DNA of 59,428 nucleotides, counting the filler. It is 5 parts of 5 records of this genome, joined end to end, with 100 filler letters (N's around TTAATTAATTAA, not from the genome) between each part and the next. Parts side by side here need not be neighbours in the genome. Positions count along the whole stretch, not along the records: positions 1 to 17,814 come from DRR723986_11713; 4 more parts are not named here. One strand, 5' to 3'. The translations under genes and the position numbers were made by a program. The notes beneath the pieces are model-generated. The model saw only the letters and a program-made list of their open reading frames with translations, was not told where the DNA came from and did no database searches. This document shows positions 1 to 48,705 of this stretch, one piece after another; within the stretch, counting starts at the first letter, position 1; every line of letters begins with the position of its first letter.

Positions 1-110
1 TCTACTGGCTTTGAAACTCAATGAGTCCAGCCCCTAGCCAGAGCCCTGTCTCTCTTCAAACCAACTTCTGGTGGCAGTGCCAGCCGGACTTCTGACGGCC
101 AAAGCGCCGC

Positions 111-1313: not shown

Positions 1314-1327
1314 GTTCTGTCCTCGCC

Positions 1328-2092: not shown

Positions 2093-2119
2093 GGCTGCCT
2101 TTTCCGTAGTCGCGAGGCC

Positions 2120-2142
2120 GCCGACGGTGCTTCACCGCCGGC
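2120..2142. other. Intergenic stem-loop between the SBP and ATPase genes (possible mRNA stabiliser)
   Basis: GCCGACGGTG-CTT-CACCGCCGGC imperfect inverted repeat. Confidence 0.4.
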
Positions 2143-2165
2143 GACCGGGAGAAAACCCCAGAAGA

Positions 2166-3254: not shown

Positions 3255-3339
3255 GGTGGTCCTCCCTTGAAGTCGGTGACCCTGTCGGGTCTGTCAGGCC
3301 CCGGCCCCTCGCCGGTTCCAGTTCGGTATTCGCCTGCTC

Positions 3340-3392
3340 AGTCTAGGTCTGCCCTCCGGCCCGGTCGTGTCGAGTTATGTCCAACTTGGAAC
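3340..3392 (-). promoter_or_regulatory. Putative operator TGTCCA-ACT-TGGAAC (3378-3392) plus -10 TAGACT (3345-3340) for the SBP1 operon
   Basis: Motif recurs at five other sites in this contig; -10 lies 32 nt from the motif edge (9+6+17), although the -35 position (ACGACC) is poor. Confidence 0.6.
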
Positions 3393-3405
3393 AGAGACAC
3401 CGGGA

Positions 3406-4281
3406 TCAGGCCGGTTTTGTAGGCACCGGCGTTGCCTCGTAGCAGCCGATAACCCCTTGATCAAAATCGAGAACAGACCCGGTCATGATGCCGGATTCAT
3501 CACTGGCGAGATGCGCGATCCAGCGCGCGACCTCGTTCATGTTCAGAAGCCTTCCAGCGGGCAGTTGCCTGCCTACCTCCGCCTGCCAACCGTCGGGCAT
3601 GTCGTGGAACGTCTTTTGCGTGATGTCCTCGGCGGGGGTGTCCATCCACCCGATGGCGAGCGCATTCACCCGGATCCCGTCCCGCATCAGCGAAAACGCG
3701 GCGTTCTTCGTCGTGGCGACAAGGGCCGCCTTGGACGCGGCATAGACCGTGAGCATCGGAACCCCGCCATGGGCGGTGATCGTGGCCACGTTGACAATGC
3801 TTCCCGGCTTTCCCGCGTCGCGCCAGTGATTGGCCGCGTTCTGCATCAGGAAAAAGGGCGCACGCGCGTTGATCGCGAAAGTGCGTTCCCAAAGAGCCGC
3901 GTCGCCATCGAGGATTCCCCCCCGGTCAGTGATTCCGGCGGAGTTGACGAGGATGTCATAGCTGCCGAACTCGGCAATCGCGCGTTCGTGGATCGACTGG
4001 CAATCATCGAGGTTGGCAAGGTCAGCGCGATGGTAGACCACCCGCTGTTCCGGGGTGGACAGCACATCGGCCGCGGCCTGCCCCTCCGCCTCTTTCCGGC
4101 CTAGGATCAGGGCGCCCTTCAGACCGCGCCGCAGCATCAGCTTCACCGCCGTCAGGCCAAGCCCCTGCGTGGACCCGGTCACAACCGCGACCTTGCCCGC
4201 GAATTGCCGGTCTAGAGGAACGTCCTTGTCCGACGCCGCGTGATAGGCGGCACTGCCATAGGGGCTTTCATAGTCGGTCAT
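3406..4281 (-). CDS. Short-chain dehydrogenase/reductase (SDR)
   Basis: TGSTQGLG, LVNSAG and YAASK motifs. Confidence 0.92.
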   Translation of the reverse strand: MTDYESPYGSAAYHAASDKDVPLDRQFAGKVAVVTGSTQGLGLTAVKLMLRRGLKGALILGRKEAEGQAAADVLSTPEQRVVYHRADLANLDDCQSIHERAIAEFGSYDILVNSAGITDRGGILDGDAALWERTFAINARAPFFLMQNAANHWRDAGKPGSIVNVATITAHGGVPMLTVYAASKAALVATTKNAAFSLMRDGIRVNALAIGWMDTPAEDITQKTFHDMPDGWQAEVGRQLPAGRLLNMNEVARWIAHLASDESGIMTGSVLDFDQGVIGCYEATPVPTKPA

Positions 4282-5282
4282 GCGTAATTCACCTCCACCG
4301 GCTTGTTGGTCTGGTAGGACTTCAGGGCGGCCTCGGATAGCAGCAGCGCGCGCCGCCCGTCCTCGAAAGTGACATTTGGGGGCTTGCCCGCCGTCACCTG
4401 GTCGATGAAATCGCGAATCTCGGCCTCGTAGGCGGCACGGTAGCGCTCGATAAAGAAATAAAGCAGCTCATCCTTCGTCGCCGTCCCGCCTTCGGTGTAG
4501 CGCGACACTTCCGTCGGACGGTGGTTGTTGGACCGCACCATGCCCTTGGCCCCAAACGCCTCGACCCGCTGATCGTAGCCGTAGTTGGTGCGGCGCGAGT
4601 TGTTGATATGGCACAGCGCGCCCGACGCAGTGCGCATCACGATCATCGCGGTATCCACGTCATTAAGTTCCGCAAAGATCGGATCGACCCGGTTTGCGGC
4701 CATCGCGAAGACCTCGACCGGCTCTTCGCCCAGGACAAACCGGGCCATGTCCATGTCATGGATCGTGGTATCGCGAAACAGGCCGCCGCAGGCCTCCAGA
4801 ATGGCCCGGGGGGGAGGAGGCCCCGGGTCCCTGCTTGTGATGACAAGCAGTTCCAGCGCTCCGATCTCACCCGCTGCGACGGCTTTCTGCACGCCTGCGT
4901 GGCTGGGATCGAACCGCCGATTGAAACCAAGTTGAAGCGGAACGTCAAAGGCGGCCAGCTTCTCGCGGCACTCCTCGACCTTGTTGATATCGACGTCGAT
5001 CGGCTTTTCGCAAAGGATCGGTTTGCCCGCTTCGGCGGAACGCAGGATCATTTCCACATGGGTGTTGGTGGGCGAGGCGATCAGCACGGCGTCAACGTCG
5101 TCAGCGCCGAGCAGCCGGTCGAGATCCGTCGTAGCCTGTGCTCCCACGTCAGCGGCAGTGCGCTTGGCGCTGTCCTCGAACACGTCATAGCACCAGGTCA
5201 CACGGGCGTCGGGCTGCAATGCCACGAGCCGCGCATGCATGTCGCCGATCCGGCCTGTGCCAATTATTCCGAAGCGAAGCAT
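4278..5282 (-). CDS. iolG: Inositol 2-dehydrogenase-like Gfo/Idh/MocA oxidoreductase (IolG/IdhA type)
   Basis: GTGRIG, CEKP, GFNRRFDP, DTTIHD, INNSRRTNYGYDQR, FFIERY; start moved to ATG 5282 (RBS GAGGGAGG). Confidence 0.8.
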   Translation of the reverse strand: MLRFGIIGTGRIGDMHARLVALQPDARVTWCYDVFEDSAKRTAADVGAQATTDLDRLLGADDVDAVLIASPTNTHVEMILRSAEAGKPILCEKPIDVDINKVEECREKLAAFDVPLQLGFNRRFDPSHAGVQKAVAAGEIGALELLVITSRDPGPPPPRAILEACGGLFRDTTIHDMDMARFVLGEEPVEVFAMAANRVDPIFAELNDVDTAMIVMRTASGALCHINNSRRTNYGYDQRVEAFGAKGMVRSNNHRPTEVSRYTEGGTATKDELLYFFIERYRAAYEAEIRDFIDQVTAGKPPNVTFEDGRRALLLSEAALKSYQTNKPVEVNYA

Positions 5283-5314
5283 CCTGCCCCTCCCTCTTGT
5301 TCGCAATCGAGAAG

Positions 5315-5367
5315 AGTGTCGGGCGGGGGCGCGCAACAGACAACGTCATGTTTGTCCAGTTTGGAAT
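5315..5367 (-). promoter_or_regulatory. Operator TGTCCA-GTT-TGGAAT (5353-5367), 9 nt, then -35 TTGTCT / 17 nt / -10 GACACT for iolG-SDR
   Basis: Motif repeat plus sigma70-like spacing read directly from the sequence. Confidence 0.6.
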
Positions 5368-5447
5368 TCCTTCCAAGTGACGAGACCCCGGAAAGTGCTG
5401 TAACCTGAAACGAGCCGAGAAACCCGCATCATGAAGGGGGCCGATAT

Positions 5448-5462
5448 TGTCCAAAATGGAAT
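5448..5462. promoter_or_regulatory. Operator TGTCCA-AAA-TGGAAT at the 5' end of regulator 1 (possible autoregulation)
   Basis: Both half-sites identical to the 5353 site. Confidence 0.55.
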
Positions 5463-7189
5463 ACTCCGACTCTCAGCGCGTTCGCCCTGGCGGGTTCTTT
5501 TCCGACATGTCGAGACATGAACTCGATCGGTTCCTCGATTTCGTGAGCAGCTTCCTGGAGGAAACGCAAACGTGCCTTCGGCTGGATATTCCCTCTCGCG
5601 AGATCCCGATAATGGTTCAGTTGATGCGCTCTCATCTGCGCGGGCGGATGGAAACGCCATCCTCGCTCATCGACAGCTCCGGCATGGCGCGCGGCACGGC
5701 GCACCGTCTTATCGAAGACATGGTTATGCGTGGCCTGATCGCCAAGCGACCGCGAACGAAAAGCGGCAAGACCTTTTCCCTGCACCCGACACCAAGACTG
5801 ATCGAGTCGTGGCTGAACTACATACGCCGGATGAAGGCGCTGCTTGGCACGGTCTTCGGGCTTGATGAGGATACGGACTACTTTTTCGGTGCGTCCTACC
5901 TGTCGACCGCCGTCGTCGCTCCGTTGCCGGTCATGTCCAGAAAGCTTGCCCTGCCCGGTGGGCTTCGTGTGCTTTTGCACGCGGATGCCACGTTCATGGC
6001 CATGCAGAAACTGAAGCGGCAGTTCGAACTGCATTTCGGGGTGGAACTTTCGGTTCGGGCACTATCCATCGACCGGCTGCATGAAGAAATCCTGGAGGAC
6101 GTGACGCGCCCGGTTTCACGCTATGACATCGTCACCTGCGATCTGTGCTGGATGGAAGAGCTGATCCATGCGGGGGCGCTGCGCCCGATCGAGCAACTGG
6201 GGCGGGGAAGCTCTCTGTTGTACAAGGACTTTCACCCGGAAGCACTGTCCACGGCGCTGCGCGGCAGTACGCTTTATGGTCTTCCGGTCCAGACCACGCC
6301 GGAGCTTTTCATCTACCGCACCGACCTTTTCGCACAGACTGGCCTGACACCGCCGTCTTCTCTGGCTGAAATGCTCGACTGCGCGCGTGCTCTGCACCGA
6401 CCTGCGCTGGACCAGAGCGGGATTTGCTGGAATGGTGCGCGCGGAACGCCTGTTGGCACGACATTCATGATGCTTATGGCTGATCTGGGCCAGCCGGTGC
6501 TCAACCTTCCGCTTACCGGCGACGGGTTTCGCGACCAGGGGCTTGAGGAGGAGCACCTGGTCCCAATGCTGACCGAACCGAAGGCCCTTGAGGCGGCGGA
6601 ATTCTTGGTGGAGCTGTTGGCCTATTCCCCGCCCAATGTGTTGCAGATGTCATGGTACGAGCGTGCGAAGTGCTATGCAAAGGGGCAAGCCGCCATGGGT
6701 TACTGCTACACCCAGATTCTTCCCATTATCGAGAATGATCCAACGTCGCCCGCTTGCGGACGCACCGGCTACCTGCCGCACCCTTCCGGTCCGGGCCAAC
6801 GGCCGATTGCGCCATTGGGGGGGTGGAATATCTGTCTGCCCGCCAACATAAAGGACACGCGCTTCGAAGCCGTGAAGCATGCGGCGCAAACCCTTACTTC
6901 AGCCGCCGCAACGAAGCTTTACATCGAAAATGGCAGCCTCGTCAGTTCGCGGTTCAGCGTTTGCAACGATCCTGCTGTTGCCCGTGATCGCCCGGTTATC
7001 GCAACGGTCGACAAGCTGGCCCGCGCAGGGCAATTACAGACATGGCCCCGGCCTGCGGTGCCGCAGCTCAACACCCTGGTGCGCATCCTGGGCGAGGAGA
7101 TTCACACCATGCTGCTGCGCAACAAGAAACCGGGCGCCGCATTGCGCGACGCACAGGCTCGGTGTGAAAAGGCAATGGCAACAGGGTAA
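5456..7189 (+). CDS. Winged-helix DNA-binding domain fused to sugar solute-binding domain (putative one-component regulator 1)
   Basis: N-terminal wHTH (SSLIDSSGMARGTAHRLIEDMVMRGLIAKRPRTKSGKTFSLHPT) with no signal peptide; C-terminal SBP_bac_1/8-like domain (YDIV..DL.W, LYGLPVQ, YRTDLF). Start may be 5447, 5456 or 5507; 5507 aligns with the paralogue. Confidence 0.82.
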   Translation: MEYSDSQRVRPGGFFSDMSRHELDRFLDFVSSFLEETQTCLRLDIPSREIPIMVQLMRSHLRGRMETPSSLIDSSGMARGTAHRLIEDMVMRGLIAKRPRTKSGKTFSLHPTPRLIESWLNYIRRMKALLGTVFGLDEDTDYFFGASYLSTAVVAPLPVMSRKLALPGGLRVLLHADATFMAMQKLKRQFELHFGVELSVRALSIDRLHEEILEDVTRPVSRYDIVTCDLCWMEELIHAGALRPIEQLGRGSSLLYKDFHPEALSTALRGSTLYGLPVQTTPELFIYRTDLFAQTGLTPPSSLAEMLDCARALHRPALDQSGICWNGARGTPVGTTFMMLMADLGQPVLNLPLTGDGFRDQGLEEEHLVPMLTEPKALEAAEFLVELLAYSPPNVLQMSWYERAKCYAKGQAAMGYCYTQILPIIENDPTSPACGRTGYLPHPSGPGQRPIAPLGGWNICLPANIKDTRFEAVKHAAQTLTSAAATKLYIENGSLVSSRFSVCNDPAVARDRPVIATVDKLARAGQLQTWPRPAVPQLNTLVRILGEEIHTMLLRNKKPGAALRDAQARCEKAMATG

Positions 7190-7193
7190 GGCG

Positions 7194-8309
7194 CTACAGC
7201 GTCACCCATGCCCGATCCCGGTCGCTTTCCTGCATCGCCTCGATCGTGCGCTGCACCTGGTAGGCCTCTCGGAAATCTGGGCCACAGGTGCCTTGCCCCG
7301 CATGCGCCTTGAGGAGTTCCGCGACTTCGATGACCTTCAGGTCGTTGAACCCGAGGTGATGGCCCGGTGCCGGACAGAACGCGCCATAGGGCGGATGTGC
7401 GGGACCCGATTCGATGCGGGTGAACCCGCTGCGCCCCACGGTGTCGGACCAGAGCAGAAGTTCGTTCATGTGTTCCTGGCTGAAGGCGAGTGCGCCCTTT
7501 GTGCCGGTGATCTCCCAGGAAAGGTCCATCGTGCGGGCGGTAGCGGCCCAGTTCGCCTCGATGCTGCCCGCTGCGCCGTTTTCGAATCGCAGAAGGGCGT
7601 GGGTCATGTCGTCGACCTTCACGGGCGCGCGCTTGGCGCTGCCCGGGGAGACGGGTCGCGTGGGAAAAATCGTGCGGCAATCGGCCTGTACCTGGGTGAT
7701 CGGCCCGATCAGGAACCGCGCCATGGAGGTGATATGGCTGCCGATATCGGCCAGCGCGCCGCCGCCCGCCGGATCGGTGCGGAAGGAATGCGGTGCGTCG
7801 GGGCTCGCCATGTAGTTTTCCGCGTGCCGCCCGCGAAATCCGGTGACCTCACCGATTTCGCCCGCCGCGATGATCTCCCGCGCCAGTTTGATCATCGGGT
7901 TGCGCAGGAAGTTGAAGCCGACCAGCGTGGTGACACCTGCGGCCTCGGCGGCCTCGGTCATCTCCAGCGCCGAGGCAGCGGTGGTCGACAGCGGCTTTTC
8001 ACAATAGACGGTCTTACCCGCCGCGATGGCCGCCAGCGCAATCGGCGCGTGCAGGACATTGGGGGCAGTGATGGCGACGATGCCAACCTCGGGGTCATCG
8101 ACAAGGGCCTGCCAGTCGGACGTTGATCGTGCGAACCCAAGCGCCGCCGCGCCCCGCTTCGCGAGGTCTTCGGTGGCGTCCGCCAGAATGCTCAGTTTCG
8201 GTTCCAGCGGCAGGTCGAACAGCCCGCCCACGGCCCGAAAGGCATTGGCGTGGCACCGGCCCATGAAGCCGGACCCGACCAAACCGATCCCGATCTCCTG
8301 CTTACCCAT
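7194..8309 (-). CDS. Gfo/Idh/MocA oxidoreductase (subfamily resembling levoglucosan dehydrogenase and inositol-cluster dehydrogenases)
   Basis: GSGFMG, CEKP, GGGALADIGSH, VDD, GPAHPPY...GFNDLKVIE. Confidence 0.88.
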   Translation of the reverse strand: MGKQEIGIGLVGSGFMGRCHANAFRAVGGLFDLPLEPKLSILADATEDLAKRGAAALGFARSTSDWQALVDDPEVGIVAITAPNVLHAPIALAAIAAGKTVYCEKPLSTTAASALEMTEAAEAAGVTTLVGFNFLRNPMIKLAREIIAAGEIGEVTGFRGRHAENYMASPDAPHSFRTDPAGGGALADIGSHITSMARFLIGPITQVQADCRTIFPTRPVSPGSAKRAPVKVDDMTHALLRFENGAAGSIEANWAATARTMDLSWEITGTKGALAFSQEHMNELLLWSDTVGRSGFTRIESGPAHPPYGAFCPAPGHHLGFNDLKVIEVAELLKAHAGQGTCGPDFREAYQVQRTIEAMQESDRDRAWVTL

Positions 8310-8318
8310 GTCGTTCTC

Positions 8319-9827
8319 CTATTCCGCCGCTGGCCGTGCCAGGTGATGTGACACCGCGTCGATCAGGTTTTCCTCGGTCATCGCCTCGCCCTCGAATTCA
8401 CCGACGATCCGCCCCTCGGCCATGGCCAGCACCCGGTGGCTGACGCCCAGAACCTCGGGCATCTCCGACGAGATCACGATCACGGCAAGCCCCCGTTCCG
8501 CGAGGTTCGCGATCAGTGTGTGGATGGCCGATTTCGATCCCACGTCGATGCCCCGCGTGGGTTCATCGAGGATGATCAACTTCGGCCCGGCACACAGCCA
8601 TTTGGCCAGCACGAATTTCTGCTGGTTTCCGCCGGAAAGTGTGGCAACCGCCTGTTCCGGCCCCGTGGTCTTGATCGACAGCGCATCCTTGTATTCATCG
8701 AAAGTAGCGCGCTCTTTGGCCCGGTCCATGACGGTGTTCCTGGCATAGCTCGACAAGTGCGGCAGGGTGGTGTTCTCCAACCCGCCCATCATCAGGACCA
8801 GCCCCTGTTCCTTGCGGCTTTCGGGTACAAGCGCCATGCCGAGGTCAATCGCCTGCCTGGGTGTCGGCAGAGGAATGTCCCTGCCTTGCCAGTGCAGGGT
8901 GCCCCGGTCGGCCTTGCGGATGCCGAAGAGCGTTTCGACCACCTCTGACCGACCCGCGCCGACAAGCCCGTATAACCCCAGGACCTCGCCCTGCCGGACG
9001 GAGAAGCTTACATCCTCGAACTGGCCCTTCAGGCTGAGGCCATCAACGCGAAGAACCTCGTCCCCGAAACTGCTGTCGGCCTTGTGGAAATAGGCTTCAA
9101 GCGTGCGGCCGATCATCATGCGGGTGACGGCGGTGGCATCGGTTTCTTTCGTGGTCACAGTGCCCTGCACCTGGCCGTCGCGCAGCGCCGTGATGCAGTC
9201 GGTCAGTTCGAAGATTTCATCCATCTTGTGAGAGATATAGACGATCCCCACCCCCTGCGCCTGAAGCCCGCGGATGGTGGTGAAAAGCTGGTCCTTTTCC
9301 GTTTCGGTCAGCGAGGCCGTGGGTTCGTCGAAGATCACCACATTGGCGCTGAACGCCTGCGACCGGGCAATTTCCACCATCTGCTGCATGGCAACCGAGA
9401 GCGTGCCCACCCGGACATCCGGCCCGAACGAACATCCCAGAGCATCCAGCGCCGCCTGTGCATCGCGGCGCAGCTTGCGCTTGTTTAGCACGCCGAGCGC
9501 GTTGGTGGGCCAGGCACCGAGATAGATGTTCTCGGCCACCGAAAGTTCAGGCGACAGCGAGAGTTCCTGGTGAATGAGCAGGATACCCTTTTCCCGCGCG
9601 GCCAGCGGGTTGTCGATCTGCACGGGCTGGCCCTGGTATATGATCTCGCCCGCATCGGGGTGGTAGAGCCCGGCCAGCACCTTCATCAGCGTGGACTTGC
9701 CCGCCCCGTTTTCCCCCACAAGCGCGTGGACTTCACCCGGCCGCACGTCGAAGCTGACCTTGTCCAGCGCGATCACGCCGGGGAAGGTCTTGGTAATTCC
9801 GGAAAGGGTCAGGATTGGATCGGCCAT
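8319..9827 (-). CDS. Sugar ABC transporter ATP-binding protein (tandem NBD, RbsA-like)
   Basis: GENGAGKS, DEPT twice, LSGGNQQK, RGIDVG; start moved to ATG 9827 (RBS AGGAGG). Confidence 0.95.
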   Translation of the reverse strand: MADPILTLSGITKTFPGVIALDKVSFDVRPGEVHALVGENGAGKSTLMKVLAGLYHPDAGEIIYQGQPVQIDNPLAAREKGILLIHQELSLSPELSVAENIYLGAWPTNALGVLNKRKLRRDAQAALDALGCSFGPDVRVGTLSVAMQQMVEIARSQAFSANVVIFDEPTASLTETEKDQLFTTIRGLQAQGVGIVYISHKMDEIFELTDCITALRDGQVQGTVTTKETDATAVTRMMIGRTLEAYFHKADSSFGDEVLRVDGLSLKGQFEDVSFSVRQGEVLGLYGLVGAGRSEVVETLFGIRKADRGTLHWQGRDIPLPTPRQAIDLGMALVPESRKEQGLVLMMGGLENTTLPHLSSYARNTVMDRAKERATFDEYKDALSIKTTGPEQAVATLSGGNQQKFVLAKWLCAGPKLIILDEPTRGIDVGSKSAIHTLIANLAERGLAVIVISSEMPEVLGVSHRVLAMAEGRIVGEFEGEAMTEENLIDAVSHHLARPAAE

Positions 9828-9829
9828 GG

Positions 9830-10789
9830 TCATGCCTCCTGCCGGCTGAGCAGCTTGTCGATAAAGAGCGCGAGGACAAGCACGGCGCCCATCACCATCA
9901 GCTCGACATAATTCGGGGTATTGAGTAGGCGCAGCCCATTGCGCAGCACAGCCAGCGTCAGCACGCCGCCGATGGTCATCCACATGCTGCCGTAGCCGCC
10001 CTGCAACCGTGTGCCGCCAAGCACCACGGCGATGATCGTCCACAGCTCCCACACCTTGCCCGCATTTGGTTCCGCCGTGCCAAGACGCATGGACAGCAGG
10101 ATACCTGCAATGGCAGCAAGCGCGCCGCAGAGGGTGAAGTTGATGATCTTGTGGCGTTTGATGTTGATGCCTGCGTCATGGGCTGCATCGATATTGTCGC
10201 CGATGGCATAGGTCTCCCGCCCGTGGCGGGTGCTGGACAGGATCCACTGAAAGAACAGCGCCAGCCCGATGAAGATCATCGCGGTCAGGGAAACCGGGCC
10301 GAGATAGATTTCCGGGTAGTCCGTATAGCTGAAATCGCTGACCATAAGGGCGTCTTCATTGGTGTAGATGAAGACCAGCCCCCGGATGCCGATCAGCCCA
10401 CCAAGCGTGACGATGAAGGAGTGCATGCCCGAAAGCGCCACCAGCGTCCCGTTCAGAAAGCCGAGCGCGGCACCCGACAGGAAGCCCACGAAGACAGCGG
10501 GCCAGATGCCGATATGATCCTGCAACCCGATCGCCAGCGCCGAGGCCAGCGCAAGGATCGCGCCGACCGACAGGTCGATTTCCCCGTCGATCATCACCAT
10601 GGTCATACCGATGGCGAGGATGCCGATGAAGGCGGCCTGCGTCAGCACGTTGCCAAGGTTGTTGATGGTCAAGAAATACGGGCTGGAGGCGGAAAACACC
10701 ACGACGGTCAGCGCCAGGAACACCCAGATGTGGTTGCGCATGAGGATCCCCGCGATGGGGCTCCGGGGTCTGGTTGTTGCCACGCTCAT
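9830..10789 (-). CDS. Sugar ABC transporter permease
   Basis: GEIDLSVG, SFIVTLG, AVVLGGT; start 10789 overlaps the upstream stop (ATGA). Confidence 0.92.
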   Translation of the reverse strand: MSVATTRPRSPIAGILMRNHIWVFLALTVVVFSASSPYFLTINNLGNVLTQAAFIGILAIGMTMVMIDGEIDLSVGAILALASALAIGLQDHIGIWPAVFVGFLSGAALGFLNGTLVALSGMHSFIVTLGGLIGIRGLVFIYTNEDALMVSDFSYTDYPEIYLGPVSLTAMIFIGLALFFQWILSSTRHGRETYAIGDNIDAAHDAGINIKRHKIINFTLCGALAAIAGILLSMRLGTAEPNAGKVWELWTIIAVVLGGTRLQGGYGSMWMTIGGVLTLAVLRNGLRLLNTPNYVELMVMGAVLVLALFIDKLLSRQEA

Positions 10790-11739
10790 GCCAGGATCCT
10801 CCCGCGTTTGGCGCCCAGGTCGATCCAGACTGCCAGGATGATGACGGCCCAGGTAACGAGCCACTGCACGTAATAGGGAAAGCCGAGAAGCAGCAGTCCG
10901 TTCTGGATAAACCCGAGCATGGTGATGCCGAGGACCGTTCTCCAGATACTGCCCGACCCGCCGAGGAGTGACGTACCCCCAAGGATCACGCCCGCCAGAA
11001 CGGTCAGCTCATAGCCCTGCCCGATGGTGTTCTGTGCGCCCATTACCCGGCTACCCATGATGACCGCCGCAATGGCCGTGGTCAGGCCCGACAGAACATA
11101 GGCCCAGAAGACTGTCCACTTCGATGCGATCCCAGAAAAGCGGCTGGCGGTTTCGTTGCCGCCCACGGCAAAGACCTGGCGGCCGAAAATGGTGCGGTTC
11201 AAAACGAAGGCCGCAAGGGCTGCGGTCGCGAGGAAGATCAGCGCAGGCACAGGAATTCCGAACAGGTCATGCCGCCCGAACACCGCGAACCAAGTCGTCT
11301 GCGCATTCTGGACATTCACGTTCGACCCGCCCGAGTAGAACAGCACCAGACCTTGCAGGAACGACAGCATCGCCAGTGTCACGATCAGCGCGTTCAGCCC
11401 GACGAGCCCGACGAGAACCCCGTTGAACATGCCGATGCCGATCCCTGCCGCGAGCGTGATCAGAATGGCCACGGCGGGGCCGGACACGTTGTGCTGATCG
11501 ACGACGATCACCGTCAACAGGGTCAGGAGCGAGCCGACCGAGAGATCCAGCCGCCCGGTGATGACGACAAAGGTCACGCCCACGGCCATGACACCGGTGA
11601 TCGACACCTGCCTCAGCACGTCGAAAATATTGCCCGGCGTCAGGAAAGCATCGGCGCTGAGCGCCACGCCGAGCAGGAACAAGCCGAAACCCGCCAACAA
11701 TCCGTGCCGACGCAAGAACGCGCTCATCTCTGTCTGCAT
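10786..11739 (-). CDS. Sugar ABC transporter permease
   Basis: GRLDLSVG, FAVGGNETASRFSGI, GVILGGTSLLGG. Confidence 0.92.
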   Translation of the reverse strand: MQTEMSAFLRRHGLLAGFGLFLLGVALSADAFLTPGNIFDVLRQVSITGVMAVGVTFVVITGRLDLSVGSLLTLLTVIVVDQHNVSGPAVAILITLAAGIGIGMFNGVLVGLVGLNALIVTLAMLSFLQGLVLFYSGGSNVNVQNAQTTWFAVFGRHDLFGIPVPALIFLATAALAAFVLNRTIFGRQVFAVGGNETASRFSGIASKWTVFWAYVLSGLTTAIAAVIMGSRVMGAQNTIGQGYELTVLAGVILGGTSLLGGSGSIWRTVLGITMLGFIQNGLLLLGFPYYVQWLVTWAVIILAVWIDLGAKRGRILA

Positions 11740-11857
11740 TGTCTCGAATCCTCCCAGTTTCGGAGATTATGGGAAGGCTTCGACCGACAGACAGCGCCAA
11801 TAAATCCATTCTGGTTATTGCCGCGCAGGAATCGGCGCGCTGGCGGCGGATCAAGAA

Positions 11858-11909
11858 AATCAGATTTGGACATGTGGCGCGTTGAACGGCGGCGCGCTCC
11901 TCTCATGAT
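11858..11909 (+). promoter_or_regulatory. Operator AATCAG-ATT-TGGACA (11858-11872), 9 nt, then -35 TTGAAC / 16 nt / -10 CATGAT for SBP2
   Basis: Reverse complement TGTCCA-AAT-CTGATT matches the 14771 and 14820 sites. Confidence 0.6.
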
Positions 11910-11989
11910 CAGGGGTGTTGAAGGGGCGCAAGCCGCAGTGCCCCGTTGCCATCGGACAACCGTTGCGCGGCGCGAAAGGGAGGAAAGAC

Positions 11990-12982
11990 ATGACGAAGAA
12001 GATGATCAAGGGCCTTGGTCTTGCAGCAGTTGTTGCAATGACTGCCGGCATTGCCGTTGCGCAGGATGCGCCCGACTGGCTGGGCGGAGAGCTGCGTCAG
12101 CCACTGTCGGAAACACGGATCGGCATCACCGTGCTCTATCCTGGCTCCAACGCCTATCAGGCAATGTATGCGCAGGCAGCAGAGGAATATGCGGCCGAGC
12201 TTGGCATCCAGGCAACCGTGATGGACCCGCAGGGCGACCCGGCGGTGCAGTTCGACCAGATCCAGGACATGATTTCGCAGAACCCCGATGCGATCGTGGT
12301 CTGGCCGACCTCGCAAAACGCGCTGATCCCGGCGATTCGCCAGGCCGCACGCGCGGGTATCCCGGTGGTGACCTCGAATTCGCCCATCGGTGAAGCGGGC
12401 CGTCGCTACATCGTCGGCCACACCGGCCCGGATGACTGCCTTCAGGCCGAACAGTCCGCAGACATGCTGGCCGAGGCGCTTGGCGGCGAGGGCAACATCG
12501 TGATCGTCGAGGGCACGCCGGGCTACACCGTGTCGATCCTGCGCGGCAACTGCTTCCTCGACCGGATCGCAGATGAATACCCCGGAATCACCGTGCTCGA
12601 CAGCCAGACGGCGGAATGGAACCGCGAACGCGCCCAGACCGTGATGGAAACCTTCCTCACCCAGTATGGTGATCAGATCGACGGCGTTTATGCCTTCGAT
12701 GACGGCATGGGTCTTGGTGTGATCAGCGCACTGCAAGGCGCGGGCATGGAGCCCGGTCAGGTGGCGGTCGTGACCTGCAACCAGTTCGGCGAAGGCTGGG
12801 ATGCAATGCAGCAAGGCTGGCATCAGGGCTCGAACCAGCAATCGCCCATCGATGACGCGATCCTCGCCATCCAGACCGCGATTCGCGTTGCCAACGGCAT
12901 CGACGTGCCGGTCCTTCAGGGCATCGAAACCCCGATGGTGACGCCCGAGAACGTGACCGAGTTCGAACGCCCGACCTGGTGA
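11990..12982 (+). CDS. Sugar ABC transporter substrate-binding protein (RbsB-like)
   Basis: Signal peptide ending AVA-Q, GIPVV, W.RE.A, DD.MGLG, QSP motifs; start 11990 (RBS GGGAGG). Confidence 0.9.
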   Translation: MTKKMIKGLGLAAVVAMTAGIAVAQDAPDWLGGELRQPLSETRIGITVLYPGSNAYQAMYAQAAEEYAAELGIQATVMDPQGDPAVQFDQIQDMISQNPDAIVVWPTSQNALIPAIRQAARAGIPVVTSNSPIGEAGRRYIVGHTGPDDCLQAEQSADMLAEALGGEGNIVIVEGTPGYTVSILRGNCFLDRIADEYPGITVLDSQTAEWNRERAQTVMETFLTQYGDQIDGVYAFDDGMGLGVISALQGAGMEPGQVAVVTCNQFGEGWDAMQQGWHQGSNQQSPIDDAILAIQTAIRVANGIDVPVLQGIETPMVTPENVTEFERPTW

Positions 12983-13002
12983 TCAGGCATAGGAGAAGAG
13001 AG

Positions 13003-13030
13003 GGGCGCGCGGTGTCCAAACCGCGCGCCC
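13003..13030. terminator. Likely bidirectional intrinsic terminator between SBP2 and regulator 2
   Basis: GGGCGCGCGGT-N6-ACCGCGCGCCC perfect 11-bp stem between convergent genes. Confidence 0.7.
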
Positions 13031-13043
13031 GTTTCCTTTGGGG

Positions 13044-14747
13044 TCAGTAACGCCCGTTTTCACGCATGATCGCATCCACCCGTTTCTGTGCACGGGCGAG
13101 CGCGTCCTCGATACCGCAGTCACCGCACAGCATCCCGTAGATCTCTTCGCCCAGAACCGCGAGCATATCACTGAACTCCGGGATCGGCGGGCGCGGCCAT
13201 GTCTGCAGCACCCCCCGCCTTTCCATGGCGTCTACACGGCCTAGAAGGCTGCTCTTTGCCTGCACCTCTGGATCGGCGCTGGTAGAAAACCGCGGGCTGC
13301 TGAGGTTACCCGCCTGGACATACCACTTCAGAACCTCGGGGCGGGTCAGGTACTCCATGACACGCCAAGCAGCCCGTTCCCGCGCGGGAGAAAGCCCTTG
13401 CGGCAGTGCCAGCGAGAATCCCCCGATGGGCGACACCGTTCGCGCGCCCGGCCCGTGCGGATGGGGCGCGAAGGCTACGTTCTGATGTGCGGGCGATGTT
13501 TCGTTCAGTTCAAACGCGCGGGCGCGGACACTCCAGCCATAGCACATGGCTGCCTGCCCCTCTGTGAATAACCGAATCCGTCGGTCCCAGTCACACTTCA
13601 AACTGTCGGGATGTGCATAGCCCTGCAACTCCAGCAAGAATTCTGCCGTCGCGCGCGCAGTATCGCTGGTTAGCAGCGGGCGGTAATTCTCGCCCGAAAG
13701 CGTCGCGCAGTCGAATTCATCGCCCACACGAGGCAAGTCGATCACCGGCTGCCCGAAGCTGGCAAGCGTCTGGATGAAGGTATGCGCGACTGGCGTGCCA
13801 CGCTTGAAATTCATGACGATGCCGGACAGGTTCATTCGCGATCGATGCAGAAGCTTAGCAGCGAACAGCACGTCTTCGGTAGTTTCGGGAATGGACAAGC
13901 CAGCATCGGCAAAAAGGTCGGTCCTGCAGAACAGAAGCTCTGCTGTTGGCTGAATCGGCAGGGCATACTGCTTGCCCGCCCAGGCCGAGCCCTTGTAGGC
14001 GGCGGGATGAAAGTCGGACGGATTGAACCGGTTGCGGGCGATGATCTCATCCAATGGCTGAATCACGCCCTCTTCTGCCAGCTGTCCGATCCAGGGAAGG
14101 TCTACGGCGACCACGTCGTAGTGCGAACTCTCGCGCTGCGAATTGGACATGATTTCGGCATGCAGTTCGTCCAGCGAGAAGTTCACGACCTCCAGGTTCG
14201 TTCCCAGAAATCCGGCAAGTTCCTTAGAGCACTGGCGGATGGTCTCGAACGTGGGGTCAACGGGAAGCGCCAGCCGGATCGTGCGATCATAGCCAACCCC
14301 TTCGCGCATCGCGTTGGGATATGGCAGGATTCGCGAGGCCATGTAATAGCCACCGAAATAGAAATCCTCCATCGCGCCGTCGCCGTTGGCAAAGCCGAAC
14401 GTGTTGCCCACCATCGCCTTGAGTTGCATCGCGAAGCTCTCAACCTCTTCAATGAGCTTGCGGGTGGGGTGAAGCGAGAAAGACTTGCCGGTCTTTGACC
14501 GCGGCCGTTTGTGCAGAAACCCGGTTTCCACCAGTTCACTCACGCGGCGCATTGCGGTGCCATAGGGCACATCGGCGGCCATCGCGGCCGAGGTGATGGT
14601 CAGCGGTTTGCCCTCAAGGTGGCGCCGCATCGCAAAGGAGATGATGTTCCAGCGCGCATCCGTCACCGAAAGTTCGGTCCGCTTTTCCGCGATCATGCGG
14701 GTTTCGTCCATGAAGGACAGGATGCGCAGAAGTTCTTGCCGGGTCAT
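13044..14747 (-). CDS. Winged-helix DNA-binding domain fused to sugar solute-binding domain (putative one-component regulator 2)
   Basis: MTRQELLR start aligns with paralogue MSRHELDR; TITSAAMAADVPYGTAMRRVSELVETGFLHKRPRSKTGKSFSLHPT wHTH followed by SBP domain; shares RGTPV, GQPV..LP and LQTWPRP with regulator 1. Confidence 0.82.
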   Translation of the reverse strand: MTRQELLRILSFMDETRMIAEKRTELSVTDARWNIISFAMRRHLEGKPLTITSAAMAADVPYGTAMRRVSELVETGFLHKRPRSKTGKSFSLHPTRKLIEEVESFAMQLKAMVGNTFGFANGDGAMEDFYFGGYYMASRILPYPNAMREGVGYDRTIRLALPVDPTFETIRQCSKELAGFLGTNLEVVNFSLDELHAEIMSNSQRESSHYDVVAVDLPWIGQLAEEGVIQPLDEIIARNRFNPSDFHPAAYKGSAWAGKQYALPIQPTAELLFCRTDLFADAGLSIPETTEDVLFAAKLLHRSRMNLSGIVMNFKRGTPVAHTFIQTLASFGQPVIDLPRVGDEFDCATLSGENYRPLLTSDTARATAEFLLELQGYAHPDSLKCDWDRRIRLFTEGQAAMCYGWSVRARAFELNETSPAHQNVAFAPHPHGPGARTVSPIGGFSLALPQGLSPARERAAWRVMEYLTRPEVLKWYVQAGNLSSPRFSTSADPEVQAKSSLLGRVDAMERRGVLQTWPRPPIPEFSDMLAVLGEEIYGMLCGDCGIEDALARAQKRVDAIMRENGRY

Positions 14748-14770
14748 GTGGGCCCCATGCCTCTCGAAAA

Positions 14771-14873
14771 TATCCAATCCTGATAAATCACAGGCAGAGG
14801 CGGCGCAGCACAGCCATTTTGTCCAATCCTGACATTTGCGACGTTCCAGCCTGCCCATCCGCTGTGGAAGAGT
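14771..14873 (+). promoter_or_regulatory. Two operators, TATCCA-ATC-CTGATA (14771-14785) and TGTCCA-ATC-CTGACA (14820-14834); the second is followed 9 nt later by TTCCAG / 18 nt / AAGAGT
   Basis: 11-nt core TCCAATCCTGA directly repeated 49 nt apart in the divergent regulator 2 / GMC intergenic region. Confidence 0.6.
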
Positions 14874-14913
14874 TAGGCAAGGGGCCGCAGTCCGGGCGGT
14901 CGAGGAGGAACTG

Positions 14914-16515
14914 ATGACCGCTGAGACATATGATTTCATCGTGGTAGGGGCCGGATCGGCCGGCTGTGCCGTCGCCGGACGGCTTGCCGAGGCGGGGCAT
15001 TCCGTCCTGCTGCTGGAAGCAGGCGGGAAGGACCGTAATCCCTTCATCCATATCCCGCTCGGATATTCGCTGCTCTATGCCAATCCGGCCGTGAACTGGT
15101 GCTACACCAGCGCGCCAGAACCACACCTGAACGGGCGGCGCCTTTTCCAGCCTCGGGGTAAGGTTCTGGGCGGCACCGGGGCGATAAACGGCATGATTTA
15201 CATGCGCGGCCAACCGCAGGATTTCGATGGATGGGAGGCGGAGGGATGCACGGGCTGGGGCTGGAATGGGGTTCTACCCTATTTCAAGTCCTGCGAGGAT
15301 CAGGAACGCGGCGCGGACGCATTTCACGGAACCGGCGGTCCTGTTTCCGTTTCGGACATCCGAACCGAGCACACCCTCGGCGAAGCGTTTCATGCGGCGT
15401 CCGAAGCCTTGGGTGTTCCCCGAAACGACGATTTCAACGGCGCGGAGCAGGAGGGCACCGGCTACGTCCAGACCACGACGAAGAACGGCAAACGCTGGAG
15501 CACGGCAGCGGGCTATCTGCGCGGGCCCGCGAAACGGAACATCGACCTTCGCCTGCATGCGCTTGTGCAAAGCGTCAACCTTGACGGCAAGCGCGCCACG
15601 GGTGTGACATGGCGCGACAGAGCAGGCCAGCACATGGCGACAGCCCGGCGCGAAGTCATCCTGTCCGGCGGCACGTTCAATTCGCCCCAGCTTCTGCAAC
15701 TCTCCGGGATCGGGCCGGGTGCACTGCTGCAGGCGTACGGGATAGAGACACGGCACGCGCTGCCGGGAGTTGGCGAAAACCTGCAGGATCATTTCGGGAT
15801 CGGGGCGGAGTATCGATCGACTGTCCGCTCCACCGTCAATGATCTCTACAACAACAAGCTCAAGGGCGGGCTGCAGCTGCTGCGCTGGCTCTTATTCCGC
15901 ACCGGCCCTTTTGCCGATAACGGCAATTATTCCAACACCTTCATCCGATCCGGGCCGGATATCGACCGCCCCGACATGATGGTCACCTTCATGGCATGGT
16001 GCACCGATGAACAGCTCAAGCCGCACCCCTTCCCGGGCTTCACGATCCTTGCGGAGCACATGCGCCCTAGGTCACGCGGCCATGTGCGACTGACCGCGCG
16101 GGACCCGGGCACCGCGCCTGAAATCCAGTTCAATTTCTTCGCCGACGAGGAAGATCACCGCGCCGCACTGGCAGGGCTCAAGTTTGGCCGCAAGATCGCC
16201 CGGACCGCCCCGATGTCTGCCTGCGTGGACTACGAGCTTTCGCCTGGAAAGGACGTGCAGTCGGATGAGGACCTGCTGGCCTATTGCCGCCAGAGTGGCT
16301 TGTCCCTGTTGCATCCGGTCGGAACGTGCAAGATGGGCGTGGATGGAGCGGCAGTCGTTGATCCGCGCCTGAGAGTCCACGGCATCGACCGTCTTCGCGT
16401 GGCCGACGCCTCGATCATGCCGCGCATAGTGACGGGAAACACGAATGCAGCCTCGATCATGATCGGAGAAAAGGCGGCGGCGCTCATCCTGGAAGACCTG
16501 AAGGGAGCAGCATGA
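14914..16515 (+). CDS. GMC family FAD oxidoreductase (choline-dehydrogenase-like, substrate unknown)
   Basis: GAGSAG, RGKVLGG, VGENLQDH, HPVGTCKMG, GNTN; start 14914 (RBS GAGGAGG). Confidence 0.92.
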   Translation: MTAETYDFIVVGAGSAGCAVAGRLAEAGHSVLLLEAGGKDRNPFIHIPLGYSLLYANPAVNWCYTSAPEPHLNGRRLFQPRGKVLGGTGAINGMIYMRGQPQDFDGWEAEGCTGWGWNGVLPYFKSCEDQERGADAFHGTGGPVSVSDIRTEHTLGEAFHAASEALGVPRNDDFNGAEQEGTGYVQTTTKNGKRWSTAAGYLRGPAKRNIDLRLHALVQSVNLDGKRATGVTWRDRAGQHMATARREVILSGGTFNSPQLLQLSGIGPGALLQAYGIETRHALPGVGENLQDHFGIGAEYRSTVRSTVNDLYNNKLKGGLQLLRWLLFRTGPFADNGNYSNTFIRSGPDIDRPDMMVTFMAWCTDEQLKPHPFPGFTILAEHMRPRSRGHVRLTARDPGTAPEIQFNFFADEEDHRAALAGLKFGRKIARTAPMSACVDYELSPGKDVQSDEDLLAYCRQSGLSLLHPVGTCKMGVDGAAVVDPRLRVHGIDRLRVADASIMPRIVTGNTNAASIMIGEKAAALILEDLKGAA

Positions 16516-17522
16516 TGGACACGATCGGGATCGCGCTGATGGGCAGTGGCCGAATGGCGCATGTCTACGGGCCGAAGATCAATGCGCATCCCGGGCTGAG
16601 GCTTGAGGTCATGTTCAACCCGCGCCTGTCGTCCGCGGAAAAGGTTGCCGCGCAATATGGTGGGCGCCCGATGGACGACCTCGATGCCATGCTCGCCGAT
16701 CCCGGCGTGGACGCGGTAGTGATTGCGACACCTACGGACACACACGTGGAGTATATCGAGCGCGTCGCGGCAGCGGGAAAACCGATCTACTGTGAAAAAC
16801 CGCTCGATCAGTCGCTGGAGCGCGTGACGCGGGCCATGCAGGCACTTGAAGACCACCCGGTACCGTTCATGCTCGGCTTCAACCGCCGGTTCGATCCCGA
16901 TAACGCGATGCTACAAAGGGCGGTGAAATCGGGTGAGATCGGTCTGCTGAATATGCTGATGAGCTGGAGCCGGGAACCCGCCCCGCCGCCGATCGACTAT
17001 GTCCGCGCCTCGGGCGGATATTTCGTGGATGCCACGATCCACGACATCGATCTTCTGTGCTGGATTGCCGGGGAACGGCCCGTTCAGGTTTATGCTGAAG
17101 GCAGCTGCCGGTTCGATCCCCAGATCGGAGCGGAGGGCGATTTTGACCTCACGATGACGACGCTGAAGATGCCATCGGGCGCATTGGTGCACATCAACAA
17201 TTCGCGGGCCTGTGCCTATGGATTCGATCAGCGGCTGGAAGCTTTTGGCGAAAAAGGCATGGTGCAGACCCGCAACCATCGCGATGATACGCTTGTCCGG
17301 TGGGACGGAACGGCGACGGAGGCAAGAAAGCCGCTGAAGCACTTCTTTCTCGAGCGCTACGACCAGTCGTTCTACAATGCATTGGACGAATTTCATGCCG
17401 CGTTGACTGAGGGGCGAGCGCCGTCCAGCACAGCCGAGGACGGGTGCGCCGCCCTAGCCATCGCTCTGGCCTGCACTCAAGCCGCGACTGAAGGGCGAGC
17501 AATACAGCCCAGCTACTTGTAG
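16512..17522 (+). CDS. Second IolG/IdhA-type Gfo/Idh/MocA dehydrogenase
   Basis: GSGRMA, CEKP, GFNRRFDP, DATIHD, INNSRACAYGFDQR, FFLERY. Confidence 0.85.
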   Translation: MMDTIGIALMGSGRMAHVYGPKINAHPGLRLEVMFNPRLSSAEKVAAQYGGRPMDDLDAMLADPGVDAVVIATPTDTHVEYIERVAAAGKPIYCEKPLDQSLERVTRAMQALEDHPVPFMLGFNRRFDPDNAMLQRAVKSGEIGLLNMLMSWSREPAPPPIDYVRASGGYFVDATIHDIDLLCWIAGERPVQVYAEGSCRFDPQIGAEGDFDLTMTTLKMPSGALVHINNSRACAYGFDQRLEAFGEKGMVQTRNHRDDTLVRWDGTATEARKPLKHFFLERYDQSFYNALDEFHAALTEGRAPSSTAEDGCAALAIALACTQAATEGRAIQPSYL

Positions 17523-17814
17523 TGGGAGGTCTGATCAACGCCTTCGACAGCGCTGAGGTTCCGGCTTGACTGCCGTCTGTGGCAACCGAGGTACCGTTTC
17601 CAGCGATTTTCGTGCCATTTGGGCCGCCAGAGCGGCGGTTTAGTCGATTTTGGACGGACTACGCATCATACCGCGAGCCTCCTTCGCATCAGGAACAGGT
17701 TGCCGAGGGCAAACAGCATTATAAGAGGGACTAGCCTGCATTTCGCGCGCTGACGAGGTACCTGCTCGAAGAGGAGATCCACGTATGAGGATCCACAGAG
17801 ACCTGCCGGACCGA

Positions 17815-17914
17815 NNNNNNNNNNNNNNNNNNNNNNNNNNNNNNNNNNNNNNNNNNNNTTAATTAATTAANNNNNNNNNNNNNNNNNNNNNNNNNNNNNN
17901 NNNNNNNNNNNNNN
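17815..17914. other. Artificial contig spacer
   Basis: 44 N + TTAATTAATTAA (stops in all six frames) + 44 N. Confidence 0.99.
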
Positions 17915-33277: not shown

Positions 33278-33377
33278 NNNNNNNNNNNNNNNNNNNNNNN
33301 NNNNNNNNNNNNNNNNNNNNNTTAATTAATTAANNNNNNNNNNNNNNNNNNNNNNNNNNNNNNNNNNNNNNNNNNNN
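33278..33377. other. Artificial contig spacer
   Basis: N44-TTAATTAATTAA-N44. Confidence 0.99.
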
Positions 33378-48687: not shown

Positions 48688-48705
48688 AATTCAACTTCAA
48701 AACGA

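What the first reader, a model, noticed from the sequence alone, without database searches (positions are those of the whole stretch)
5456..14747. Pair of winged-helix / solute-binding-protein fusion regulators: candidate uncharacterised one-component family
Seen: two ~570-aa paralogues (5456-7189 and 13044-14747) with no signal peptide. Each has a ~120-aa N-terminal wHTH (shared KRPR[TS]K[ST]GK[TS]FSLHPT wing), an aromatic linker (DYFFGASY / DFYFGGYY) and a complete MalE-like SBP domain. Each is transcribed divergently from a catabolic operon. Known: SgrR fuses an HTH to a family-5 SBP and LacI uses a type-I PBP fold, but I know of no characterised regulator with this wHTH plus a family-1 sugar SBP. 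Pipelines would likely label these 'extracellular solute-binding protein'. From memory, the wHTH resembles small stand-alone alphaproteobacterial proteins with a D..W..........G....S......VP..TA.R pattern. Inference: a transporter binding domain repurposed as a cytoplasmic ligand sensor. Both local ABC systems already have their own type-I SBP, so these are unlikely to be transport subunits.
Basis: partly seen in the sequence, partly recalled or inferred. Interest (0 to 1): 0.82.

Follow-up and report, generated by a model that had tools for sequence, protein, structure and literature searches.

The report
Sugar-binding-protein-headed gene activators
Two genes that databases label as exported sugar-uptake proteins most likely encode cytoplasmic gene switches, in which a DNA-binding head is fused to a whole transporter-type sugar sensor, and their conserved DNA site sits where an activator, not a repressor, would bind.

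Summary
Observation confirmed. Both proteins (36% identical) join a MarR-like winged helix to a complete MalE-type (SBP_bac_1) domain and lack a signal-peptide-like stretch. The family is widespread (58 of 301 genomes in the Nioella family; rhizobial and Paraburkholderia plasmids) and always named 'solute-binding protein' where named. A 15-bp palindrome, WRTCCA-N3-TGGAYW, precedes operon-first genes, follows operon rearrangements (gfo: 5 of 5 operon-first, 0 of 60 internal), and genome-wide 15 of 21 exact matches in family-bearing genomes lie within 300 nt upstream of a family gene. A -10-like hexamer starts 32-34 nt after it (gmc 60 of 65, sbp2 39 of 40), putting it near -52, upstream of -35: activator geometry. 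The two paralogues carry different recognition helices and different site variants. Targets are inositol/cyclitol uptake and oxidation genes; the ligand is unknown. Nothing is shown experimentally. Precedents exist (SgrR, LysR, GntR+SBP_bac_1 fusions), so this is a new variant, not a new principle; ten literature searches found no description. This scan noted the family twice before on other DNA (one with an operator). The window is a concatenation of unrelated contigs; the finding lies on a Nioella-like one.

The parts
5447..7189 (+). Regulator 1 (REG1): MarR-like wHTH + linker + SBP_bac_1 domain; start TTG 5447 or ATG 5456; recognition helix begins RGTAHR
13044..14747 (-). Regulator 2 (REG2): same architecture, 567 aa; recognition helix begins YGTAMR
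14820..14834 (.). Main REG2-type operator (TGTCCA-ATC-CTGACA) shared by the divergent REG2 and gmc promoters; -10-like AAGAGT with TGn at 14868-14873 toward gmc
14771..14785 (.). Second REG2-type site 24 nt before the REG2 start; candidate autorepression site
   Evidence: sites centred 10-40 nt before the start occur 21 times among the REG2 upstream regions
11858..11872 (.). Operator for the sbp2 promoter; -35-like TTGAAC 11882-11887, -10-like CATGAT 11904-11909
11803..11817 (.). Operator for the perm3-perm2-atp2-gfo operon (- strand); -10-like CATAAT at 11766-11771
5353..5367 (.). REG1-type operator (TGTCCA-GTT-TGGAAT) shared by the divergent iolG1 and REG1 promoters; toward REG1 -35-like GTGACG 5377-5382 and -10-like TAACCT 5401-5406
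5448..5462 (.). Site-like match over the REG1 start codon; present at this place in only 2 of 11 loci, so possibly coincidental
3378..3392 (.). REG1-type operator before sbp1-atp1-perm1; -10-like TAGACT at 3340-3345 on the - strand
4278..5282 (-). iolG1, inositol 2-dehydrogenase (TIGR04380 414 bits, cut-off 355); predicted REG1 target
3406..4281 (-). SDR oxidoreductase (PRK06198 subfamily, over cut-off); predicted REG1 target
111..3254 (-). CUT2-type ABC importer 1: Peripla_BP_4 SBP (2166-3254, XylF-like, below cut-off), ATPase (1328-2092), permease (111-1313); predicted REG1 target
7194..8309 (-). gfo: Gfo/Idh/MocA dehydrogenase, best solved relative scyllo-inositol/L-glucose dehydrogenase 5YA8 (E 5e-89); predicted REG2 target
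8319..11739 (-). CUT2-type ABC importer 2: two permeases and a two-domain ATPase; predicted REG2 target
11990..12982 (+). sbp2: exported Peripla_BP_4 binding protein of importer 2; predicted REG2 target
14914..16515 (+). gmc: GMC flavin oxidoreductase (choline-dehydrogenase-like, 569 bits, below the 605 cut-off); predicted REG2 target
16512..17522 (+). iolG2, inositol 2-dehydrogenase (TIGR04380 358 bits, cut-off 355); predicted REG2 target
17815..17914 (.). N-spacer with six-frame stops: end of the contig that holds the finding; DNA beyond is unrelated

Best explanation
REG1 and REG2 are cytoplasmic one-component transcription factors of an undescribed family. A dimer (inferred from the palindromic site) binds a 15-bp site through two MarR-like winged helices; the MalE-type domain, captured once from an exported SBP and stripped of its signal peptide, binds a small polyol inside the cell, most likely an inositol, inosose or related cyclitol made or imported by the target genes. 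The site is centred about 52 nt before the inferred transcription start, just upstream of a weak -35, so the ligand-bound protein most likely activates (recruits RNA polymerase) rather than blocks it; one site serves both arms of a divergent promoter, and a second site near the regulator's own start may damp its expression. REG2 controls gmc-iolG2, sbp2 and perm-perm-ATPase-gfo; REG1 controls iolG1-SDR and importer 1, each through its own site variant. Shown here: domain folds (predicted), family, synteny, site conservation, site-to-promoter spacing. Inferred: dimerisation, direct binding, activation, ligand class, paralogue specificity.
For: Fold: N-domain matches MarR-type wHTH chains (Foldseek 9 hits at E<=0.001; VIA Z up to 9.8, rmsd 3.1, 87 aligned); C-domain matches polyol/sugar SBPs (5IAI target TM 0.92). 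Export signal: strong uncharged hydrophobic 10-mer (KD>=2.3, cut chosen after seeing the data) in 0 of 36 fusions vs 30 of 33 stand-alone SBPs; at the preset 1.5 cut 9 of 36 vs 33 of 33. Single origin: 35 fused SBP domains split from 32 nearest stand-alone SBPs, FastTree support 1.0. Site: >=10 bits before gmc 68 of 68, REG2 68 of 69, perm3 42 of 42, sbp2 41 of 41, REG1 11 of 11, iolG1 7 of 7, against 0-3 in resampled controls; internal genes iolG2 1 of 66, atp2 2 of 41, sdr 0 of 7. Held-out: gfo 5 of 5 when operon-first, 0 of 60 when co-transcribed; 11 of 14 plasmid loci with 27-41% identical members, variant palindromes at the expected place in the other 3; 15 of 21 exact genome-wide matches in family-bearing genomes within 300 nt upstream of a family gene. 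Geometry: -10-like hexamer at +32..34 in gmc 60 of 65, sbp2 39 of 40, perm3 25 of 41, REG1 9 of 10, iolG1 6 of 7, gfo 5 of 5, REG2 28 of 62; 29 of 44 held-out site-directions vs 3-13 at other offsets. Paralogues: REG1-side sites all GGAAY-type (23 of 23 counts), REG2-side never, with RGTAHR vs YGTAMR helices. Pocket residues D164, F167, W219, G443, R519 kept in 29-35 of 36.
Against: No experiment: binding, start sites, ligand and direction of control are untested. The matrix was trained on REG1, REG2, perm3, sbp2, iolG1 and sbp1 regions, so those counts (and gmc, same intergenic DNA) are circular, and related genomes are not independent. A -35-like hexamer is clear only for sbp2, iolG1 and REG1 (3.7-4.0 of 6 matches); for gmc, REG2, perm3, gfo it is 1.8-2.2. 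A second held-out set was less sharp (21 of 33 at +32..34 vs up to 17 elsewhere). The strict pattern also occurs 46 times in 35 of 243 genomes without a detected member (control pattern 19 times); 28 of 40 inspected lie inside long ORFs, 12 do not. 24 of 41 perm2 'upstream' hits are a coding coincidence inside perm3. One REG2-bearing genome (G404) has no over-cut-off iolB, which weakens the inositol-feeder reading there.
Confidence: 0.6

Rival explanations
1. Same regulator, same site, but it acts as a ligand-released repressor (as most MarR- and sugar-sensing regulators do), blocking the UP-element region or acting through tandem sites.
For: MarR-like head; second sites close to the REG2 start; tandem sites about 21 nt apart in the Phaeobacter-type clade; REG2's own promoter shows the +32..34 spacing in only 28 of 62.
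Against: The site lies wholly upstream of the -35 position at a fixed spacing (three-base window) in seven promoter classes and in distant clades; steric repressors need no such phasing and usually overlap the core promoter (general knowledge).
Confidence: 0.25
2. The proteins are regulators, but the palindrome is read by another factor (for example IolR or a global sugar regulator).
For: Targets are inositol genes, known to be under IolR in alphaproteobacteria (PMC2597717, passages); the strict pattern occurs in 35 of 243 genomes without a detected member.
Against: The IolR motif GGAA-N6-TTCC has the opposite arrangement and none of 39 matches (<=1 mismatch) falls in the four intergenic regions; the site follows the family into unrelated gene contexts (acetoin-dehydrogenase-like island, hydroxyquinol cluster) and varies with the recognition helix; no other regulator gene was recognisable among the 60 most common neighbour clusters (read by eye from N-termini).
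Confidence: 0.08
3. The proteins are not transcription factors: transport subunits, cytoplasmic ligand buffers, or misannotated/fused pseudogenes.
For: All database names call them solute-binding proteins; HTH Pfam hits are below cut-off.
Against: No export signal; both local importers are CUT2-type with their own SBP; all 75 N-domain matches in 301 genomes lie in open frames of 561 aa or more; conserved length 567 aa and invariant recognition-helix/wing residues.
Confidence: 0.05

Closest known systems
SgrR family (wHTH + SBP_bac_5; description recalled, paper not obtainable)
   Same: Cytoplasmic regulator built from an N-terminal DNA-binding domain and a full ABC-type solute-binding domain; recalled to activate a divergent target and repress itself.
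   Different: Uses a family-5 (peptide/nickel) SBP and an SgrR_N head; neither Pfam model hits these proteins.
LysR-type regulators
   Same: Winged HTH N-terminal to a type-II periplasmic-binding-fold effector domain; divergent gene layout (PMC8694067, passages).
   Different: LTTR effector domain is the small core without the C-terminal tail and shows no large closing motion (same paper); here the domain is a ~410-aa MalE-class SBP with its tail; no HTH_1/LysR_substrate hit.
GntR + SBP_bac_1 fusion proteins (ESM Atlas clusters in Chloroflexota, Bacillota, Actinomycetota)
   Same: HTH fused to the same Pfam SBP family; feature score 0.91-0.92.
   Different: GntR head, 437-497 aa; no GntR hit in the window proteins; no paper holding both 'GntR' and 'PF01547' found.
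MarR-family regulators
   Same: Fold of the DNA-binding head; palindromic site.
   Different: Only 13-22% identity, no Pfam MarR hit for the whole proteins, one C-terminal helix rather than the dimerisation pair, and ligand sensing moved to a separate 410-aa domain.
Polyol/sugar SBPs of CUT1 importers (Arad_9887, PDB 5IAI; trehalose/maltose-binding protein 1EU8)
   Same: Fold and pocket motifs of the C-terminal domain.
   Different: Exported, stand-alone, paired with MalF/G-type permeases.
IolR (RpiR family) of alphaproteobacteria
   Same: Controls inositol uptake and dehydrogenase genes (PMC2597717, passages).
   Different: Unrelated protein, repressor, motif GGAA-N6-TTCC, absent from these intergenic regions.

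Membership tests
SBP_bac_1 / MalE-type solute-binding domain | Pfam PF01547 over cut-off and type-II PBP fold | tested here: met
   57.2 and 86.5 bits, cut-off 26; 5IAI target TM 0.92
ABC importer binding subunit (CUT1) | N-terminal Sec/Tat/lipoprotein signal | tested here: not met
   no uncharged 10-mer in the first 45 aa of either protein; hydropathy heuristic only
ABC importer binding subunit (CUT1) | Cognate BPD_transp_1 permeases next to it | tested here: not met
   all three permeases on the contig are BPD_transp_2; not scanned across all related loci
MarR family | Winged-helix DNA-binding fold | tested here: met
MarR family | Pfam MarR/MarR_2 over cut-off, single ~140-aa domain with ligand pocket at the dimer interface | tested here: not met
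   no MarR model at E<=0.1 for the two whole proteins; 567-580 aa two-domain chain
SgrR family | SgrR_N head plus SBP_bac_5 domain | tested here: not met
   neither model listed at E<=0.1
LysR family | HTH_1 plus LysR_substrate, about 300 aa | tested here: not met
   neither model listed
LacI/GalR family | LacI HTH plus type-I PBP fold | tested here: not met
   no LacI or Peripla_BP hit; fold is type II
GntR + SBP_bac_1 fusions | PF00392 head | tested here: not met
   no GntR hit for the window proteins
One-component transcription factor | Conserved cis site that co-occurs with the gene | tested here: met
One-component transcription factor | Direct, ligand-modulated DNA binding | not testable with these tools
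   needs EMSA/footprint and ligand assays
One-component transcription factor | Dimer or higher oligomer | not tested
   no complex model was obtained; inferred only from the palindromic site
Class I-type activator | Site upstream of -35 at a fixed distance from the core promoter | tested here: inconclusive
   -10-like hexamer at +32..34, but start sites are inferred, not mapped

The most novel reading that the evidence does not exclude
An undescribed, widespread family of activators in which the full hinge-closing motion of a MalE-class transporter domain, not a small LysR/LacI-type rearrangement, switches on RNA-polymerase recruitment from a site at about -52; its members have diversified pocket and recognition helix together, so that each (REG1 and REG2 side by side, with orthogonal operators) reports a different rare cyclitol and marks an unassigned catabolic pathway.
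Probability: 0.4. Interest if true: 0.72.

Novelty: new variant of a known kind. Interest (0 to 1): 0.6.

Why it matters
About one in five genomes sampled from the Nioella family (58 of 301) carries a regulator that annotation files as an exported transport protein, so it is invisible to regulon reconstructions. The predicted site and promoter geometry make DNA binding and activation testable with one EMSA and one reporter. Because the sensor is a full SBP, the thermal-shift screens used for transporter SBPs should name the inducer and so point to the substrates of several unassigned pathways (this inositol-like oxidation island, an acetoin-dehydrogenase-like island, a dehydrogenase plus hydroxyquinol cluster). 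It would also be a natural example of coupling SBP closure to transcription, useful as a biosensor scaffold.

Tried and rejected
Own genome: none held; the nearest genome G001 has no member at E<=1e-70 and probably matches the other contigs. Class-wide search found 1 of 400 genomes, a floor since at most 3 candidates per genome were scored. Stand-alone wHTH relatives: 13 hits and 32 hits among short proteins, by name and contig length mostly fragments of the fusion (not checked one by one); word-index searches would miss distant ones; the Atlas lists 118-164-aa MarR-like clusters at 0.90-0.92, a lead only. First rigid pattern TGTCCA-N3-TGGACA under-counted REG2-type sites and was replaced by a matrix. 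E. coli-type promoter scan found 2 sites, below the shuffle mean of 3.4, none at these promoters. IolR motif rejected. Family search around G074 returned a single genome. Metagenome locus scan did not run for lack of a conserved stretch. No homodimer model was obtained, so the oligomeric state stays open. No RNA holder listed. Literature: ten searches (listings and abstract starts only) showed no paper on this family; passages read in PMC8694067, PMC2597717 and PMC9007349 (nothing relevant); the S. meliloti IolR and SgrR papers were not held. Subscription journals, RegPrecise-type databases and supplements were not seen, so a prediction there cannot be excluded.
Full report
Observation. Both ORFs exist as described and are 36% identical end to end. 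Each passes the Pfam cut-offs for SBP_bac_1 and SBP_bac_8 from about residue 180 on, has only sub-threshold HTH_IclR hits at the N-terminus and no NCBIfam hit. Orthologues suggest that gene 1 (REG1) starts at TTG 5447. The window is a concatenation: N-spacers at 17815-17914, 33278-33377, 43197-43296 and 49159-49258. Only bases 1-17814 belong with the finding; 5480-17486 is about 84% identical and colinear with four Nioella genomes.

Anatomy. The AlphaFold2 model of gene 2 (REG2), built on 69 sequences, has mean pLDDT 92 and pTM 0.84: two helices, a helix-turn-helix, a two-strand wing and a long helix in residues 3-116, a less certain linker, then the SBP. The whole model matches CUT1-type sugar/polyol SBPs (5IAI, target TM 0.92, rmsd 2.7; 1EU8). 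The 130-residue head, folded alone (pLDDT 76), matches MarR-type winged helices (9 Foldseek hits at E<=0.001; VIA Z 9.8-7.8 over wHTH chains), at 13-22% identity, so the fold is clear and the family is not. A hydropathy heuristic finds no signal-like stretch in either window protein; at the preset cut 9 of 36 fusions against 33 of 33 stand-alone SBPs score, at a stricter cut chosen afterwards 0 of 36 against 30 of 33. Pocket positions that align with the sugar-contacting motifs of 1EU8/5IAI (alignment; their role recalled) are kept: D164 30, F167 31, W219 33, G443 35, R519 29 of 36, while neighbours vary by clade. A tree of SBP domains separates 35 fusions from the 32 nearest stand-alone SBPs with support 1.0 (one fusion and one stand-alone row left out as partial), consistent with one fusion event; it is not rooted independently.

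Family. 571 proteins at E<=1e-20 among 7983 scored, the best 120 nearly all 567 aa and named only as binding proteins. Among the best 150 representatives at 50% identity, 34 span both domains; named members come from Polaromonas, Agrobacterium and Aureimonas. 34 of 38 plasmid records hit over at least 80% of the length. In 301 genomes of the Nioella family 58 carry the N-domain and all 75 matches lie in open frames of 561 aa or more. Close gmc orthologues occur in 11 of the same 301 genomes, all 11 among the 58. Across 76 loci REG2 stays with gmc, iolG2, gfo and one of two alternative CUT2 importers; REG1 is present in 10 of them at over 55% identity.

Operator. A palindrome seen by eye in the window was turned into a matrix from the regions before REG1, REG2, perm3, sbp2, iolG1 and sbp1 (82 unique sites). 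Counts for those genes and gmc are near complete but circular. Held-out tests: (a) gfo has the site in 5 of 5 loci where it heads an operon and 0 of 60 where it is co-transcribed (three rows flagged 'first' by the script are co-transcribed); (b) 14 plasmid loci that I chose from the 34 full-length hits, 27-41% identical and in different gene contexts, have it in adjacent intergenic DNA in 11, and the other three (Paraburkholderia, Shinella, Loktanella) show weaker variant palindromes there, along with altered recognition helices; (c) the strict pattern WRTCCAWWWTGGAYW occurs 67 times in 52 of 301 genomes; 21 of these are in family-bearing genomes and 15 of the 21 lie 162-246 nt upstream of a family gene, 2 more within 7 kb; (d) 11 of 20 further loci have a site within 400 nt upstream, and in most others a site lies further up, about 1 kb or at an operon head. 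Against: 46 matches fall in 35 genomes with no detected member (reversed-pattern control 19); of 40 inspected 28 are inside long ORFs and 12 are not. The 24 of 41 hits before perm2 are a codon coincidence inside perm3. In a complete Nioella chromosome 4 of 5 matches to a looser pattern lie in this island, so the regulon is local. The IolR motif (PMC2597717, passages) is absent from all four intergenic regions.

Activator geometry. Anchored on the site, a hexamer with A at 2 and T at 6 begins 32-34 nt downstream in gmc 60 of 65, sbp2 39 of 40, perm3 25 of 41, REG1 9 of 10, iolG1 6 of 7, gfo 5 of 5, sbp1 3 of 3 and REG2 28 of 62 unique sequences, against at most 10 at other offsets. A -35-like hexamer begins at +10 for sbp2 (TTG in 40 of 40), iolG1 and REG1 and is weak for the rest. 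In 44 hand-picked site-directions from distant clades the count is 29 at +32..34 against 3-13 elsewhere; a second set is less sharp, 21 of 33 against up to 17. In the window 6 of 7 distal site-directions fit. If that hexamer is the -10 element, the site spans about -59 to -45. A site wholly upstream of a weak -35 at a fixed phase is what an activator contacting RNA polymerase needs (general knowledge); this is inference, start sites are not mapped.

Two paralogues. Sites on the REG1 side always carry a GGAAY half (11, 9 and 3 counts, partly the same site), those on the REG2 side never do and mostly carry CTGA; the recognition helix starts RGTAHR in 10 of 11 REG1 and YGTAMR in 52 of 71 REG2 rows, unmatched rows included. 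Shared ancestry could give the same pattern, so paralogue specificity is a prediction.

Targets and ligand. Two inositol 2-dehydrogenases over the TIGR04380 cut-off, a dehydrogenase closest to scyllo-inositol dehydrogenase, an SDR, a GMC flavoenzyme and two CUT2 importers, with no kinase or ring-cleavage gene: an uptake-and-oxidation feeder for inositol isomers or derivatives. iolB passes cut-off elsewhere in 3 of 4 REG2-bearing genomes tested. The ligand is therefore most likely a cyclitol or inosose; not shown.

Comparison and novelty. It works like SgrR or a LysR regulator (DNA-binding head plus periplasmic-binding fold, divergent layout) but fails their membership tests. GntR+SBP_bac_1 fusions exist in databases, so reuse of this SBP family as a sensor is not unique. 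Ten searches of the open library found no description; subscription papers and supplements were not seen. Earlier notes of this scan report the same family on two other genomes, one with an operator; my note of the palindrome precedes both, and the listings do not mention activator geometry or paralogue-specific sites. Verdict: real, a new variant of one-component regulators; regulator about 0.9, activator about 0.6; interest 0.6.

Noticed in passing
window 17815-17914, 33278-33377, 43197-43296, 49159-49258: N44-spacer-N44 joints with six-frame stops: the window is five joined contigs. carB after 17915 lacks its N-terminal part. The second contig (carB, greA, mnmA, cheR, chpT-like) looks Hyphomonas-like from recall only, whereas the first is Nioella-like, so the assembly may mix organisms.
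   Followed up: partly
L081, L082, L088, L089, L091 (rhizobial plasmids): A clade of the family sits with several dehydrogenases, YciI, an intradiol dioxygenase and (in three of them) maleylacetate reductase: possibly cyclitol oxidation, aromatisation to hydroxyquinol and ring cleavage. The operator precedes these operons in four of the five.
   Followed up: partly
L078, L084-L087 (Phaeobacter, Pacificitalea, Marinovum, Tritonibacter plasmids): The commonest clade controls an island with a CUT2 importer, SDRs, ThuA-like protein, an M24 hydrolase and an acetoin-dehydrogenase-like complex; tandem operators about 21 nt apart.
   Followed up: partly
L008, L014, L015, L019, L021 and about 20 other loci: The REG2 island has swapped its ABC importer for a different one (about 30% identity SBP, single-domain ATPase) while keeping gmc, iolG2 and gfo.
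   Followed up: no
P0252 (505 aa): Family wHTH begins at about residue 247, after a long N-terminal part with no Pfam hit: a different fusion or a misassembly.
   Followed up: no
window 13003-13030: 11-bp G+C-rich hairpin between the convergent sbp2 and REG2 genes, usable as a bidirectional terminator.
   Followed up: no
ESM Atlas hits: Many clusters of GntR + SBP_bac_1 fusions in Chloroflexota, Bacillota and Actinomycetota, apparently a parallel, also undescribed, reuse of the same SBP family.
   Followed up: no
window 48001-59428: G+C falls to 0.51-0.55 from about 0.61, roughly matching the last contig joint.
   Followed up: no
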